Below, one piece after another: positions 12,019 through 31,260 of a stretch of 64,000 nt of DNA. The stretch is from positions 33,248,001 through 33,312,000 of the forward strand of contig CP068257.2 in NCBI GenBank assembly GCA_009914755.4, given 5' to 3'. The position numbers and the translations under genes are program-made. The stretch is from the human T2T-CHM13v2.0 reference genome, Homo sapiens. The notes under the pieces were generated by a model. The model ran no database searches. It saw nothing but the letters and a program-made list of their open reading frames with translations, and was not told where the DNA came from. Numbering within the stretch: the first letter of the stretch is position 1; every line of letters starts with the position of its first letter.

Positions 12019-13205
12019 ATACCAATTGCTAAAATTTCTTAAATTTCTCTCAGCTGAAGCCATGATACACTTTCTTGTCATTCTAAAGGTGGCAGGTGAT
12101 GTAGCACTTGCCTCAACTGCAGATGTAAACTGATATAAGCTGCTCAGTGAATTCGTTTCACATAAGAGAATTCCTTTTGACCCTGAACTTCAATTTTTTG
12201 GGGGTGTCATGGAGTCCCAGTCCATTTGGCTAAAATGTGAATTATTCTGAACAATAACCTCTGTGCTCACATGACCTCTGGAGTTCAGCCCGGTCCCCAG
12301 AGCTCCCTAACCCTCATCTCCTGGGAGCTGCTATCTCTTCCTCCTTTGTAAAGGAGCGGTCGATTTACATGGAGATACTGAATCAAAGAGAGAAACATTC
12401 CAAGGGTGAGATACACTCTGAACCAAGATTTAAACTGCCAAGGAGAAAAAGGAGGGAATGGAAGAAAAGAGAGAAGGTTCAGGCTTCTACAGGGCCAGTG
12501 TAGCCAGCGAGGCCATCAAAGCCGGACAGGCAGGTTTTCCCAGTTACGGAATGAACCCGAGGTTAGGAGCTGTGATCCTGGATGGCAGCCAGCGCCCAGA
12601 TAGATTCGTTTTGTAGAACAGAGAAAAACCCTTCCATGTTCAACCTCTGGCAGTTTCTATGAGGTTTACAATCCCCATGGACTGGCAGCTGGTCACAGAA
12701 AGAGAACTTCTTTCTCTACCTTTCATTTTGCACCACTTACTAGGCCCCTTGGAGAATCCATCAGACTGGTGGCTTTTGACAGAATTCAAAATTGGCACTG
12801 AAAGTTTGGATGAGCCAAGAGCCAGGGCCTTCTGAGCCATGGCGTGGTGTGTTCATGCCAAGGGTATATTTTCAAGCACATTTTCAAAAACAGAAAATGA
12901 GACAGTTGTCTTAAGATCACTTAATAAAACGTAATGAAACTGTTAAAGGTAAGATTCAGTGAGGAAGATTAAGACTAATTGTTAAAATTAGTCAGAATGA
13001 TCTGCTCTCTTCCTAATGGGAAGCAAATTGCAAAAAAAAAAAAAGAAGAAGAAGGAAAAAGAAAGAAAAAAATCTGGCAGGCTTTGGTGTTGACACTTAC
13101 ACTTGAAAGAGAAAAATCAAGTTATATTTTATGACTATGGAAAGAAATTATGACAGAGTCAAATCGGGCCTTCAGACAGCTCATTTACTTTTGTAGCGCT
13201 GACTA

Positions 13206-13258
13206 AAAAAAAAAAAAAATATATATATATATATATACACACACACATATATATATAC
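13206..13258. repeat. Compound A15-(TA)n-(CA)n-(TA)n simple repeat.
   Basis: aaaaaaaaaaaaaaatatatatatatatatatacacacacacatatatatatac. Confidence 0.95.
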
Positions 13259-15416
13259 ATCTCAAGACCAACAATATTCATATCCACAGTAATTACAATT
13301 GGGTCAAATGTTCCATTAGGGTTTCCGTATTTTTTATTGCTTATTATCACTGGTGGGAAGGAGAGTCTGTTCAAAATATTGTCTGTTTATGGCATTTCAA
13401 TTAATTTTCTCATTCCAGAGTATGGGAAGACAGCCCAGCCTTGGTTGCAGCTATTTTACTTTTTGGGGTTTATGCAAACTCAAGGGCATACTGGCACGAA
13501 TCCTGCAGCCAAATGCAAACACTCCACACCTTGGGGAAACAGTTCACTGTTACCCAAGTAAACACAAGCACCTATTAGTCACCCACTCAAAACAGAAATG
13601 GTCAATGAGGGATGCAAGATCAGCCATCAATGCCAGAAAAGAAAGCACACTGCTTTCAAAATCTCATTTTTTTATTATCACTGGTTTACTGTGCATTGCC
13701 GGAAAGCCACTACTGAACTTCTTGTGGGAAAATGTCACTGGCACGGATCACTAAATAGTTTTTAAAACTTTTATGACCAAAACCTAACTTGAAGACCCAC
13801 ACAGATGCATAGTATGATGATAACACTTTCTCTAGAAAAGCAATTCAATGATACTTAGCTATTGATTCCTAACAGCAGAAATCCACAAGAACTGAATTAA
13901 GAGAGTTAGCTAGGCCGATGGGCATGGACCAGGCTGTGGGGCCTTTGTTTTTTATTGGCTTCTCACCCACTCTGCCAGCTACTCATCCGAAGCCTTTAAG
14001 ATGTTTTCTAGACACACATCTCTGAATCATAATGCAAATTCCATTTACTGAAAGGTGGGGACTTTTAATACAACAAGTGAACCCATTTAATGACTTATGC
14101 TTTTATATCTTATAGCATCACTCATGCTTTCAAAAAGTGGATATAATTTTCTTTGCATTACCCTATTATTAATATAGTACTATGAATATATATTTTCAAT
14201 CACATTATATAAATTTTTTATTTTCTCCAGCTATGATTCTATTATGAAAATGCTCCAGATAGCTAGGATAGCAAAAATAATCACCAAAATAATCAACTCA
14301 CATTTACCCCTTTCTCCTTTCTGACTAATCAAATTCTCTGAGAACTGAGATTTTCTTGTTTTTAAATGCCTTTTTAAAGAGTAATAATTTCTCTTATTTT
14401 AAATGTTGTTTGATTGGTGCTTCCATTTTTTTCAATACGAGAACTATTACTGTTATTTAGGTATTTACCATAAGTCTTTTTATTATACTTGAAATAACTT
14501 ATTTGTAAGCTTAATCGGTACTATATTACAAAAAATGAGTTTAAAAAACTATCTTACCTCCCTCAACTAAACTTTTACTACTTGTTGCTATTTATAAAAT
14601 ATGATTTGGTTCTTACAATGTAAAGAAAACATAATACTTGAAAATAATTGGAAACCAGAAAAAATTACAATAAGCCAAGATTCCTATTTCTGCTCTAATG
14701 CTTTGATAATGAGTTAAAGGCAAGGAAAAATAAAATCACACATGGAGCTGAAGTAATGCAACAATTTCTTGGATAATCCAATCTCTAATATTATTAGTAT
14801 CTAAAATGCTAACCAGGCCCAACCCCTCCTCCTAAATAAGGCATTGAAAAGAAATACAACAGGAAGATCATACTGCCATCAATGGTACTAACATTATTTC
14901 TTCATGTCTTTTTCTAAAAAGGTAAGCTTGCTTGAAACCATGTTTCAACATCATACACTAGAAATCCCTAAAATTATTAGAAGTGGTCATTCGAAACTCT
15001 GTCACTTTTCACAGATAGCCCACAGATCATACGTCAACAGTTTCCATTAAATAGCTTTTGTATTGTTATCCAAGAGAGAATCCTCATTGTAATTGTATAA
15101 TCCTAGTTTCATTAAAGTCAGTTTTATATTTTTTGCATTTTAGTAAAAATCTCAGGCATTTCTTTGAAATTCACAATTCCTACGCTGCATGTTCCAAATC
15201 AGTCTTAAATCCACTCAGTAACATAAAGCAATAATATAGAGATTCTGCTAAAAATATTAAACTTCAAATAAATATTTTTAAGAGCTTGACATAGCAATAA
15301 GAATGTTAAGACAGACCGAGTTTCTAGGGATTCCATCACAGAAATCACTAGAATTTTGAAATGTGGGTTTGTTGCCATGAAACGTGTTTCAAGCATAGTT
15401 TTGACAGATAACGTAC

Positions 15417-15573
15417 CTCTTCCACTTCGACCGACAAACCTGAGGTCATTAAATCTTGCAACCTGGTTCTTCATGGCTGCGGTAGCATTTCTCAGCTCAG
15501 CCGAGTAGTTTTCATCATTGCCAGCCATCACAGTGACCAGAGTGCCATCTGGAACATCCCCTAGGGCCACCAC
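15417..15573 (-). CDS. RUNX1: RUNX1 exon 4, 157 nt, encoding RUNX1b residues V91 to the first base of G143 ([53 protein letters not shown]). This is the central part of the Runt DNA-binding domain. The exon ends in phase 1.
   Basis: The minus-strand translation is an exact match to the RUNX1 Runt domain (ORF 15205..15573). The 3' splice site reads tgtttag|GTGGTGGCC at 15574/15573. The 5' splice site reads AGAG|GTACGT at 15417/15416. The 157 nt length matches the known exon size. The upstream exon ends in phase 0 on ...TTCAAG, so joining gives AFK-VVALG as in the protein. Confidence 0.95.
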
Positions 15574-15766
15574 CTAAACACCAGTCAAAGGACAAATGCA
15601 GACATCAGGGATGTTATACATACACTTTTAGGGCATTTGTGTAGTGATTATTCTAAAATTAAATGTATATTCAATGATTTCTTTTTAGGTTGCAGAGGAA
15701 TAGCAATGATAACTTAAGCAAAACAACAGAAAAGTTATAAAGAGAAGACACTTTTTAATTATATTT

Positions 15767-29587: not shown

Positions 29588-29735
29588 TGCCAGGCAATGG
29601 GTGAAGTGCTTTTATATACTTTGCCTGATTTAATCCTCACAAGAACATCATTGCTACCCCCATTTTACAGATAAGGAACCTCACCCTTGGAGAGTTCAGG
29701 TAACTTGCCCAAATTCACATCACTCTTGACCTACA
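29588..29735 (+). mobile_element. MIR SINE fragment.
   Basis: tttaatcctcacaagaacatcattgctacccccattttacagataaggaacctcacccttggagagttcaggtaacttgcccaaattcacatcac matches the MIR core (atttaatcctcacaacaaccc...ccccattttacagatgaggaaactgaggc...gacttgcccaaggtcacaca). Confidence 0.75.
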
Positions 29736-29740
29736 TAGAA

Positions 29741-29781
29741 ACACACACACACACACACACACACACACACACACACACACA
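29741..29781. repeat. (AC)n dinucleotide microsatellite, about 20 units, directly 3' of a MIR.
   Basis: acacacacac... continuous from 29741 to 29781. Confidence 0.98.
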
Positions 29782-31260
29782 TATTCATATCTACATATAG
29801 GTCCACATGCATGGTAAGCTATGTTCCTTTTGGATCATGATTATTTTTGTGGCTATCCTTGGTAGAGTTCTAAAAAATTAACTCTGATCTCATCTTTCAC
29901 TTTTATCCCCCCCGTCTCAGGGTCTAGATCAGAAAATATCTTGGAAATTCTTCACCATGCAAACCTCATATCGTTAGGAGTCAGATTTTAATGTCATTTC
30001 TGTCATCCACAGAGTTTGAGGAGAAAGCCAAGGTCCATTTGGCTGAGAAGCTTTTATATTGATAATAATATAAAATGGCGTTTTAGTCTTTTCCCACCTC
30101 CACTAGTTTAAAAGGGCATCTTTAGGACTTTCCTAGATACAAGGTATTTGATTCAACTGCCTTCAGCATTCCTTGAATGCTTCCTCTGTCCCAGGCAAGG
30201 TGCTAGGCTCACTGATGACAAACACCAAACAGATGAGAGTAAAGAAGTGTCATGGCTGTTGGTGGACACATGTCCAGGGTCCCAGGAACTGGTGGGAGGG
30301 AATATAAGAGGAAGAGGGGCCAACAGCCCCTGGTGGGCTCAGGAAAGACTTCCTTCCTAGCAGAGGTGATTTTTGACTTGACTTTTGGAGGTTGGGTAGA
30401 TTTTTAGGTGGTTCAAAGAGCTAGAGGAGGGGTTTAGGGAGGTGACGGTGGGGTGGGGAAATGGTGCTCTGGGCTGAATAAGCATCATGAATAAGGGCGT
30501 GAGTTTATGAAACACATCAGTGTGTCAGTTCCAGTACAGTTGGGGCATAGGTTTGAGACCAGGTTGGGGAGTGGGGGAGGGAGTGCAGCAGTTCAAAAAT
30601 ACATAGACGTAGATAGGTCATTGGAAGCACAAGCAACCTGAGGAAATGTGAACTTCAACATGCGGGAAAATTGATCTGTCAAAGCCAAACAGGTAAATAA
30701 CAAAATTAATATATATATTAGAAAAATAAGTCTGTCAACAACAGCTCGGTGAGTTGGAGGGAGTAGAGATGAGGAGTGGGGAGCTATAGCAGTTGTCAGA
30801 CAAGGGGTCATGAGGATCTGGATTAAGGTAGAAGCAATGGAGATGGAAGAGGGGATTGAGGTGAGGGAGGGGGAGGAGTCTCCCCAGCATCTGTCCTTTA
30901 ATAGTAGTAGAGAAGACCAGAAACAGCGGGTTTACAGAGAGACATCGTGATGTCTCTCTGAGCTTTGGATGCCCAGAACAGAATAGGAGGTGCTGGTGGG
31001 GAAAACAGGAATTCTGGGGAGAGGTTTCATGTAGAAATAATGAGCTGAACATCCTTAGAATATCTATTGTAGTTTCAGATTGTATCTAGGGTACAATCAA
31101 ACTCTATGCTAGTTTCAGAGACTGTTTCCAGTGAGAAGAGACCATTCTCAGGTTCTGGGATTATCAACATTCCAGGGTGAGCAGAAGAGGGAGCAACCAA
31201 GGAGATGGAGCTAGGAAAAGAAAGAGGAGAGAATAAGTAATAAGAGTAAAGGAAAATGCA

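What the first reader, a model, noticed from the sequence alone, without database searches (positions are those of the whole stretch)
12019..31260. A roughly 19 kb Alu-free zone surrounding exons 2-4 and P2, flanked on both sides by Alu-dense intron
Seventeen Alus occur in the window. None lies between 12019 and 31260. That interval holds all three exons, both short introns and the island. The only mobile element there is a 76-bp MADE1. The flanks, by contrast, carry about 5 Alus in the 12 kb at 1-12018 and about 12 in the 33 kb at 31261-64000. Long SINE exclusion away from the CpG island itself is a hallmark of regions dense in constrained regulatory DNA, as seen around HOX genes and developmental TFs. 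Introns 2 and 3 therefore likely carry conserved regulatory modules.
Basis: seen in the sequence. Interest (0 to 1): 0.5.

Follow-up and report, generated by a model that had tools for sequence, protein, structure and literature searches.

The report
Alu-free stretch around RUNX1 P2 promoter
The 19-kb stretch without Alu repeats is real, but it is an ordinary, already-described kind of transposon-poor zone around the CpG-island promoter and first coding exons of the developmental gene RUNX1, and not a sign of unusually dense hidden regulatory DNA.

Summary
The window is human RUNX1 (minus strand): exon 2, the P2 promoter/CpG island, exon 3 and exon 4. The observation reproduces exactly. There are 17 Alus and none lies in 12,022-31,259. 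The claim that MADE1 is the only mobile element there is wrong: an ancient MIR SINE sits at 29,572-29,724. A gap this long has a chance probability of 0.02-0.12, depending on how base composition and the island are modelled.

Orthologous loci from six other mammals show SINE/LINE insertions inside the margins of the zone (about 14.3-16.9 kb and 28.2-28.9 kb). One ends 101 bp from exon 4. So those margins tolerate insertions. Only an ~11-kb core (about 16.95-27.85 kb) is transposon-free in all lineages: the 5' part of intron 3, exon 3, the 1.6-kb 5'UTR, P2, the 4.75-kb island and exon 2.

Substitution-level conservation of intron 3 is barely above that of the Alu-bearing flank. Strongly conserved non-coding DNA amounts to about 1.3 kb in roughly eight discrete blocks, and none reaches fish. 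The only element conserved between human and a teleost lies in the Alu-dense flank, 440 bp from an Alu.

Best reading: this is a known-type transposon-free region at a bivalent CpG-island promoter, lengthened in human by chance. Interest is low.

The parts
12022..31259 (.). Alu-free interval (19,238 bp)
   Evidence: no Alu hit between the Alus at 11,730-12,021 and 31,260-31,548
11730..12021 (-). Left boundary Alu (AluS-like, 90% identical to consensus)
   Evidence: Absent from muntjac, narwhal and rhino.
31260..31548 (+). Right boundary Alu (AluS-like, 90% identical to consensus)
   Evidence: Absent from rhino.
13504..13592 (.). Intron 4 conserved non-coding block (mammals, bird, cobra)
13944..14180 (.). 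Intron 4 conserved non-coding element, 76-77% identical to bird and cobra over about 230 bp. It is non-coding, because its indels are not multiples of 3.
15417..15573 (-). RUNX1 exon 4 (157 bp, Runt domain), AG acceptor and GT donor intact
15766..15842 (.). MADE1 MITE, 77 bp, 193 bp upstream of the exon 4 acceptor. It is the only post-boreoeutherian insertion in the human zone.
15574..21700 (-). Intron 3 (6,127 bp, AT-rich). Its length is 5.9-6.6 kb in all seven mammals.
18375..18572 (.). Intron 3 conserved non-coding element. At least 80% of positions are identical in human, vole, muntjac and rhino; bird 72% over 120 bp, cobra 80% over 64 bp.
16950..27850 (.). Core that is free of lineage-specific transposon insertions in all 7 mammalian lineages examined (about 10.9 kb)
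21701..23601 (-). RUNX1 exon 3 in its P2 form: coding part 21,701-21,970 and 1,631-nt 5'UTR. P1 transcripts enter at the internal acceptor at 21,955/21,954.
   Evidence: UTR length from PMC7314639. The start-site position is inferred.
23447..23750 (-). P2 core promoter / start-site conserved block (mammals; cobra 78-80%)
21501..26250 (.). CpG island (GC > 0.55 and observed/expected CpG > 0.6; GC up to 0.70)
25038..25085 (+). Isolated rodent-conserved 49-bp block with a CTCF-like core (CGCCAGGGGGCAGC), about 1.45 kb upstream of the P2 start site. It is a candidate for the published P2-CTCF site.
   Evidence: PMC8828719. The strict IUPAC motif did not match.
27786..27824 (-). RUNX1 exon 2 (39 bp; (E)CILGMNPSRDVH)
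29572..29724 (-). MIR SINE fragment (ancestral) inside the 'SINE-free' zone
   Evidence: Muntjac orthologue.

Best explanation
The interval is a composite with two kinds of sequence.

(1) An ~11-kb core (about 16.95-27.85 kb). It contains exon 2, the 4.75-kb P2 CpG island with its conserved CTCF-like site and core promoter, the 1.6-kb IRES-containing 5'UTR, coding exon 3, and the 5' 4.75 kb of intron 3. This core is a true transposon-free region of the known type found at bivalent CpG-island promoters of developmental transcription-factor genes. Insertions there have been removed by purifying selection over about 100 million years. The likely reasons are that they would disrupt the promoter and its unmethylated, Polycomb/Trithorax-marked chromatin domain, the structured 5'UTR, or splicing of P1 transcripts across exon 2 -> 3 -> 4.

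(2) Two AT-rich margins (12.0-16.9 kb and 27.9-31.3 kb). These are Alu-free in human but demonstrably tolerate SINE/LINE insertions in other mammals. Their emptiness in human is best explained by chance plus somewhat lower Alu retention in AT-rich DNA.

What is shown: the anatomy, the multi-lineage insertion map, the conservation levels and the target-site density. What is inferred: that selection rather than insertion bias is the cause, and that chromatin-domain and splicing integrity rather than sequence-conserved enhancers are what selection acts on.
For: - Gene and exon map.
- CpG island at 21,501-26,250.
- Start site at about 23,601, from the 1,631-nt UTR (PMC7314639), which coincides with a mammal/cobra-conserved block.
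- Lineage-specific retroposons inside the margins of the zone: rodent ID at about 14.4 kb and B1 at about 15.2 kb; a rhino tRNA-derived SINE at about 15.7 kb, whose two copies in that locus match each other at E=2e-38, ending 101 bp from exon 4; muntjac Bov-tA at 15.75-15.89 kb; a muntjac L1 3' fragment at about 16.9 kb; muntjac BovA2 at 28.85 kb.
- No insertion between about 16.95 and 27.85 kb in human, vole, hamster, muntjac, narwhal, rhino or bat. Narwhal aligns to 15,894-23,762 as one 8.1-kb block.
- Scan statistic on pooled events: p=0.0002-0.002.
- Older insertion wave: only 1 of 16 MIR/L2/L1 fragments is in the zone.
- L1-endonuclease target sites are about twice as dense in the zone as in the flanks (7.8 per kb against 3.5-4.1 per kb). 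Integration opportunity is therefore not limiting, which favours post-insertion removal.
- Weak sequence conservation of most of the zone matches the published finding that most bases in transposon-free regions are not sequence-conserved (PMC2241635).
- P2, but not P1, is bivalent in human ES cells (PMC5106514), and bivalent domains coincide with transposon exclusion zones (Bernstein 2006, as summarised in PMC2241635).
Against: - Once the island and exons are treated as off-limits in advance, the evidence that exclusion extends into intron 3 and into the stretch between the island and exon 2 is modest. It is p=0.013-0.04 for pooled events and 0.06-0.2 for non-human lineages only.
- Narwhal and bat have no insertions anywhere in the sampled region, so they add little statistical power.
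- Orthologous sequence was available only for window positions of about 1-33 kb, so the right flank could not be compared.
- The repeat libraries were recalled from memory. Old, degraded transposons in the core cannot be excluded.
- No chromatin, methylation or polymorphic-insertion data could be examined here.
Confidence: 0.6

Rival explanations
1. Chance plus base composition only. Apart from the self-evident exclusion from exons and the CpG-island promoter, the Alu-free interval has no biological cause. AT-rich intronic DNA retains few Alus, and a 19-kb gap among 17 Alus is a tail event.
For: The adjusted gap probabilities are 0.044-0.12. The second-largest Alu gap (36,381-45,646, 9.3 kb) is also AT-rich and holds no exon or island. 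The margins of the zone accept SINEs and LINEs in other mammals. Non-human insertions alone give p=0.06-0.2 once the island is removed. There are 17,604 SINE-free regions of at least 10 kb in the human genome, and they are not enriched for genes (PMC2582637).
Against: Three partly independent signals point the same way: the primate Alus, the ancient MIR/L2 fragments (1 of 16 in the zone, p=0.026-0.076), and lineage-specific insertions in other mammals. GC-class rates from the flanks still predict 5.3 Alus in the zone. AT-rich DNA normally accumulates L1, yet none is detected there. Intron 3 length is nearly constant across mammals.
Confidence: 0.25
2. One reading: SINE exclusion is caused by a high density of sequence-constrained regulatory modules in introns 2 and 3, as in HOX-like regulatory landscapes.
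For: One strong conserved element lies in intron 3 at 18,375-18,572. Conserved P2 promoter, UTR and CTCF-like blocks lie in 'intron 2'. Two amniote-conserved elements lie in proximal intron 4. Three-species identity is slightly higher in the zone than in the left flank (0.43 against 0.34).
Against: Conserved blocks total only about 1.3 kb of 18.8 kb. Human-rhino identity in intron 3 (0.76) is about the same as in the flank (0.75). No non-coding block in the zone reaches shark or teleost, whereas a flank element next to an Alu does. The published RUNX1 enhancers listed in the papers read here lie in intron 1, the upstream gene desert or further downstream, not in introns 2-3 (PMC8828719, PMC5645309). 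Insertions occur within 100-320 bp of exon 4 in three lineages.
Confidence: 0.1
3. Mechanistic insertion bias. Alus never integrated here, either because the DNA lacks L1-endonuclease target sites or because germline chromatin is refractory to integration, so no selection is involved.
For: Not directly testable here. The dense nucleosome-free, CpG-rich island is a poor L1-endonuclease substrate.
Against: TTAAAA-type target sites are twice as frequent in the zone outside the island as in the flanks. Retroposons did integrate in the orthologous margins in rodents, muntjac and rhino. The authors of the transposon-free-region study argue for selection over insertion inhibition, because retroviral integration within such regions is uninhibited (PMC2241635).
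Confidence: 0.05

Closest known systems
Transposon-free regions (TFRs) of vertebrate genomes (Simons et al. 2006; 2007, PMC2241635)
   Same: A stretch of at least 10 kb without recognisable transposons (13.7 kb in human; about 10.9 kb shared by 7 mammals). It overlaps a transcription-factor gene important in development and extends 5' of a transcription start site. Most of its bases are not sequence-conserved.
   Different: The full 19.2-kb interval defined by Alus is not transposon-free, because it contains MADE1 and a MIR. Its outer thirds carry insertions in other mammals. I could not check whether this locus is in the published hg18 list, because the stored supplement is cut off before chr21.
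Transposon exclusion zones at bivalent (H3K27me3 + H3K4me3) CpG-island domains in ES cells (Bernstein et al. 2006, as summarised in PMC2241635)
   Same: A large CpG island at the promoter of a developmental regulator. RUNX1 P2 is reported to be bivalent in human ES cells (PMC5106514). The transposon-free core is centred on the island.
   Different: The extent of the chromatin domain relative to the 16.95-27.85 kb core is unknown. No chromatin data were examined here.
HOX-cluster-type transposon deserts / genomic regulatory blocks dense in conserved non-coding elements
   Same: Depletion of SINEs and other transposons around a developmental transcription-factor gene.
   Different: Far smaller (11-19 kb, against 100 kb or more). 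It has only about eight short conserved non-coding blocks, none conserved to fish. Substitution rates are near those of the flanking intron. Insertions are tolerated close to an exon.
SINE-free regions of at least 10 kb (Mourier & Willerslev 2008, PMC2582637)
   Same: By definition the 17.5-kb SINE-free stretch (12,022-29,571) belongs to this class of 17,604 human regions.
   Different: That class as a whole is not enriched for genes. This instance is also LINE-poor and centred on a promoter, which fits the gene-associated LINE-free / transposon-free class better.

Membership tests
Transposon-free region (Simons et al.) | At least 10 kb (or at least 5 kb) with no annotated transposon | tested here: inconclusive
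   The full 19.2-kb interval fails, because it contains MADE1 at 15,766-15,842 and MIR at 29,572-29,724. The 13.7-kb stretch between them passes against my small, recalled repeat library. Cross-species alignments show no post-boreoeutherian insertion there. RepeatMasker/Dfam was not available, so old fragments cannot be excluded.
Transposon-free region (Simons et al.) | Overlaps a regulatory or developmental gene and extends 5' of its start site | tested here: met
   RUNX1 exons 2-4 and the P2 start site at about 23,601 lie inside it. The free stretch extends about 4-6 kb upstream of P2.
Transposon-free region (Simons et al.) | The orthologous region is also transposon-free in other vertebrate lineages | tested here: met
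   No lineage-specific insertion falls between about 16.95 and 27.85 kb in vole, hamster, muntjac, narwhal, rhino or bat. Pooled scan p=0.0002-0.002. This is not met for the margins of the zone.
Bivalent-domain transposon exclusion zone | CpG island at a developmental gene promoter | tested here: met
   The island at 21,501-26,250 has GC up to 0.70 and observed/expected CpG above 0.6.
Bivalent-domain transposon exclusion zone | Co-occurring H3K27me3 and H3K4me3 in ES cells, covering the transposon-free stretch | not testable with these tools
   The literature says P2 is bivalent in human ES cells and P1 is not (PMC5106514). The domain borders are unknown.
HOX-like dense cluster of conserved non-coding elements | A high density of deeply (fish-level) conserved non-coding elements filling the transposon-free DNA | tested here: not met
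   About 1.3 kb of 18.8 kb lies in strongly conserved blocks. None aligns to shark or tarpon. Intron 3 identity is about the same as in the flank.
SINE-free region of at least 10 kb (Mourier & Willerslev) | At least 10 kb with no SINE | tested here: met
   12,022-29,571 (17.5 kb) holds no Alu or MIR detected by blastn or nhmmer.

The most novel reading that the evidence does not exclude
The 5' 4.75 kb of intron 3 and the 1.6 kb between the island and exon 2 may be under selection against any insertion even though most of their sequence drifts almost neutrally. On this reading, what is constrained is the physical integrity and length of an ~11-kb promoter-centred chromatin and splicing unit (the bivalent P2 domain, plus the exon 2 -> 3 -> 4 splicing path that P1 transcripts must take through an active or poised internal promoter), and not discrete conserved enhancers. 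Intron 3's near-constant length of 5.9-6.6 kb across mammals would be a signature of this.
Probability: 0.3. Interest if true: 0.35.

Novelty: already known. Interest (0 to 1): 0.15.

Why it matters
The finding matters little beyond annotation. It shows that in this much-studied leukaemia gene the Alu gap marks the P2 promoter and exon block, and does not mark a hidden cluster of enhancers. It also shows that Alu absence is an unreliable guide to conserved regulatory DNA: the deepest conserved element in the window sits next to an Alu in the Alu-rich flank. The practical output is a short list of conserved non-coding blocks worth testing (intron 3 at 18,375-18,572; intron 4 at 13,504-13,592 and 13,944-14,180; the CTCF-like block at 25,038-25,085), and a map of where insertions are and are not tolerated around the Runt-domain exons.

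Tried and rejected
- The supplementary coordinate tables for human transposon-free and SINE-free regions (PMC2241635, PMC2582637) are cut off before chr21, so I could not check whether this locus is listed.
I did not pursue it further.
- A strict CTCF IUPAC pattern gave no match in the window. The CTCF-like call rests on reading the core motif by eye within a conserved block.
- Self-comparison of the window found no repeat family touching the zone.
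- An apparent 984-bp hamster insertion in mid-intron 3 turned out to be an assembly artefact carrying Tn5/Nextera adaptor sequence. Several other 'insertions' were runs of N or tandem repeats. All of these were excluded.
- The tails that gene models add after exon 4 differ between species, so the idea that the conserved intron 4 block is a conserved alternative coding exon was rejected.
- The look-up for the catshark protein P0025 returned nothing.
- Two rodent-specific ~110-130-bp inserts at about 16.2 and 16.7 kb look B1-like by eye but gave no significant consensus hit. They were counted only in the 'liberal' event list.
- No orthologous DNA could be obtained for window positions beyond about 33 kb, so conservation in the right flank was not measured.

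Full report
WHAT THE WINDOW IS. The window is human RUNX1 (AML1) on the minus strand. tblastn and six-frame peptide searches place the P2-type N-terminus MRIPVD... at 21,970 -> 21,701 and the Runt-domain exon VALGD...GRSGRG at 15,573 -> 15,417. The 13-residue P1-specific exon (E)CILGMNPSRDVH is at 27,824 -> 27,786. Splice sites read directly from the sequence agree with this. The next coding exon (KSFTLTI...) is not in the window. A CpG island (GC up to 0.70, observed/expected CpG above 0.6) spans about 21,501-26,250. The P2 5'UTR is a single 1,631-nt exon with an IRES (PMC7314639, citing Pozner 2000). That puts the P2 start site at about 23,601.

THE OBSERVATION. blastn with Alu consensus sequences gives exactly 17 Alus: five at 1,987-12,021, twelve at 31,260-63,481, and none at 12,022-31,259. 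All are old AluS/J copies, 10-26% diverged from consensus. MADE1 is at 15,766-15,842. The statement that MADE1 is the only mobile element is wrong. A MIR SINE lies at 29,572-29,724 (E=3e-16 and 1e-14), and it is ancestral because muntjac has it at the orthologous place. The interval is Alu-free but not SINE-free. The stretch without any recognised transposon is 13.7 kb.

IS IT MORE THAN CHANCE? With 17 points on 64 kb, the probability of a maximal gap of at least 19.2 kb is 0.02-0.04. If the CpG island and exons are declared off-limits it is 0.044. With GC-class-specific rates it is 0.07-0.12. Flank-derived rates predict 5.3 Alus in the zone. The second-largest gap (36,381-45,646, 9.3 kb) is also AT-rich and has no exon or island. 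The human Alus taken alone are suggestive, not compelling. For scale, the human genome has 17,604 SINE-free regions of at least 10 kb, which are not enriched for genes (PMC2582637). It has 856 fully transposon-free regions of at least 10 kb, which are enriched for transcription-factor genes (PMC2241635).

INDEPENDENT REPLICATES. A protein search with the exon 3-4 peptide returned short RUNX1 gene models on large contigs from many vertebrates. I fetched the orthologous DNA with 10-kb flanks for bank vole, Chinese hamster, muntjac, narwhal, black rhino, a bat, blue tit, cobra, a shark and a tarpon. These loci cover window positions of about 1-33 kb only. I catalogued lineage-specific insertions in two ways: from gaps in a five-mammal MAFFT alignment and from pairwise blastn chains for six mammals. 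Each insertion was then inspected. After discarding runs of N, tandem repeats and one hamster assembly artefact carrying Tn5/Nextera adaptors, real retroposons remain inside the orthologue of the human Alu-free zone:
- a rodent ID element at about 14.4 kb and a rodent B1 at about 15.2 kb;
- a rhino tRNA-derived SINE at about 15.7 kb, ending 101 bp from the exon 4 acceptor (its two copies in that locus match each other at E=2e-38);
- a muntjac Bov-tA at 15.75-15.89 kb, the same spot as human MADE1;
- rodent SINE-like fragments at 16.0-16.7 kb;
- a muntjac L1 3' fragment at about 16.9 kb;
- a muntjac LINE-like fragment at about 28.19 kb and a BovA2 at 28.85 kb.
The outer parts of the zone are therefore insertion-tolerant. 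By contrast, no lineage has an insertion between about 16.95 and 27.85 kb, and narwhal aligns to 15,894-23,762 as one 8.1-kb block. A scan statistic on the pooled events gives p=0.0002-0.002. With the island and exons removed in advance it is p=0.013-0.04, and for the non-human lineages alone it is 0.06-0.2. An older insertion wave agrees: of 11 MIR, 4 L2 and 1 L1 fragments detected in the window, only the one MIR lies in the zone (p=0.026, or 0.076 with the island removed). L1-endonuclease target sites are about twice as dense in the zone as in the flanks. Lack of integration sites is therefore not the explanation.

IS THE ZONE DENSE IN CONSTRAINED DNA? No. In the five-mammal alignment, Alu-masked non-coding identity between human and rhino is 0.76 in intron 3 and 0.75 in the Alu-bearing left flank. 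Positions identical in vole, muntjac and rhino are 0.43 against 0.34. The high values are confined to the 5'UTR (0.65) and the P2 core (0.52). The upstream half of the island is poorly conserved (0.29). The strongly conserved non-coding blocks are discrete:
- 13,504-13,592 and 13,944-14,180 (intron 4; conserved to bird and cobra);
- 18,375-18,572 (intron 3; bird and cobra);
- the stretch just upstream of the ATG, plus 22,499-22,719 and 22,853-22,894 (5'UTR);
- 23,447-23,750 (P2 core; cobra);
- an isolated 49-bp block at 25,038-25,085 with a CTCF-like core about 1.45 kb upstream of the start site. This fits the published deeply conserved P2-proximal CTCF site (PMC8828719).
Together these make about 1.3 kb of 18.8 kb. 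None aligns to shark or tarpon, even with a sensitive search. The only human-teleost non-coding match in the window is at 48,543-48,620, in the Alu-dense right flank, 440 bp from an Alu and about 25 kb upstream of P2. By position, and because +110 is described as a conserved non-coding element between P1 and P2, it is a candidate for the known +110 haematopoietic enhancer (PMC5645309; P2 is at +128 in mouse, PMC8828719). The left flank also holds a strongly conserved block (4,707-4,883) between Alus. Conserved modules and Alus therefore coexist in this gene, and Alu absence does not predict them.

MECHANISM. The best-supported reading is a composite. The core is a transposon-free region of the known kind, centred on a large CpG-island promoter that is reported to be bivalent in human ES cells (PMC5106514). 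Such domains coincide with transposon exclusion zones, and most of their bases are not sequence-conserved. The authors of the transposon-free-region study attribute this to selection against interruption rather than to blocked integration (PMC2241635). The target-site result and the insertions in the orthologous margins argue the same way here. It remains inferred, not shown, that what is protected is chromatin-domain, promoter, UTR or splicing integrity. The 12.0-16.9 kb and 27.9-31.3 kb margins owe their Alu-free state in human mainly to chance and composition.

NOVELTY AND VERDICT. Transposon-poor zones around developmental transcription-factor promoters have been catalogued genome-wide since 2006-2008, and RUNX1 P2 is a heavily studied promoter. 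Nothing here departs from that picture. The residual curiosity is that the 5' part of intron 3 stays insertion-free and length-stable across mammals (5.9-6.6 kb) while its sequence drifts. That observation is statistically modest and is itself a described property of transposon-free regions. Interest is low (0.15), and the finding is classed as already known.

LIMITS. Key identifications were cross-checked where possible by copy-to-copy matches. RepeatMasker, phastCons, chromatin data and population-insertion data were not available. Orthologous sequence did not extend into the right flank.

Noticed in passing
window 48543-48620 (and L010:439-521): A conserved non-coding element shared by human and a teleost (tarpon): about 80% identity over 78-83 bp, in RUNX1 intron 1, about 25 kb upstream of P2. 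It sits in the Alu-dense flank only about 440 bp from the Alu at 47,813-48,101. By position it is a candidate orthologue of the mouse Runx1 +110 haematopoietic enhancer.
   Followed up: partly
window 15680-15900; L002:16446-16622; L004:16162-16412: There are three independent insertions in the same ~250 bp of intron 3, just upstream of exon 4: human MADE1 (193 bp from the acceptor), muntjac Bov-tA (about 210 bp) and a rhino tRNA-derived SINE (101 bp). It appears to be a local insertion-tolerant spot, or a hotspot, right next to a Runt-domain exon.
   Followed up: partly
L005:12568-13551 (Chinese hamster GCA_026545065.1): An apparent 984-bp insertion in intron 3 is an assembly artefact. It consists of about 240-bp tandem copies of local sequence joined by Tn5/Nextera mosaic-end adaptor sequence (CTGTCTCTTATACACATCT / AGATGTGTATAAGAGACAG).
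   Followed up: yes
window 4707-4883: A 177-bp block in intron 4 with at least 80% of positions identical in human, vole, muntjac and rhino. It lies between two Alus in the Alu-rich left flank. It is another conserved element outside the Alu-free zone.
   Followed up: no
window 36381-45646: The second-largest Alu-free stretch (9.3 kb). It is AT-rich (GC 0.31-0.40), has no exon or CpG island, and contains two MIR fragments (37,583-37,649 and 41,294-41,483). It is a useful internal control for the effect of base composition.
   Followed up: partly
window 11520-12321; L005:21470-21878: The left edge of the zone received independent SINEs in two lineages: the human Alu at 11,730-12,021 and hamster B1 fragments in the orthologous interval.
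   Followed up: no
window 31010-33176: About 2.2 kb present in human but represented by only 10 bp in narwhal. It includes the boundary Alu (31,260-31,548) plus about 1.6 kb of unclassified sequence, which is either a primate-lineage insertion or a narwhal deletion.
   Followed up: no
window 28210-28212: Rhino, narwhal and muntjac all carry about 116 bp or more of extra sequence at this point that human lacks. The likely cause is a small deletion on the human (or euarchontogliran) lineage about 0.4 kb upstream of exon 2.
   Followed up: no
intron 3: window 15574-21700 and orthologues: Intron 3 is 5.9-6.6 kb in all seven mammals (the hamster value after removing the artefact and Ns), 5.7 kb in blue tit and 7.8 kb in cobra. 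It is only 0.7 kb in a shark and 2.3 kb in tarpon. The exon 2 to ATG distance is also stable (5.7-6.1 kb) in the mammals where exon 2 was found.
   Followed up: partly
window 29741-29781: A perfect (AC)20.5 microsatellite lies immediately next to the MIR fragment.
   Followed up: no
window 47814-47930: The left arm of one Alu passes Rfam's gathering score for Metazoa_SRP (72.9 bits against a threshold of 70). This is an expected 7SL-derived cross-hit, not an SRP RNA gene.
   Followed up: no
window 13944-14180 and 18375-18572: Invariant motif cores across mammals, bird and cobra. The intron 4 element has CAGTAAATGGAAT...CATTATGATTCAGAG, with an octamer-like ATTTGCAT in human and bird, plus GAGAAGC..ATAAAA. 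The intron 3 element has GTTT(G/A)GTCT...AATGTAAAT..TTTGT, and a mammal-only CTTCCTGATA (ETS/GATA-like). These motif readings are by eye only.
   Followed up: partly
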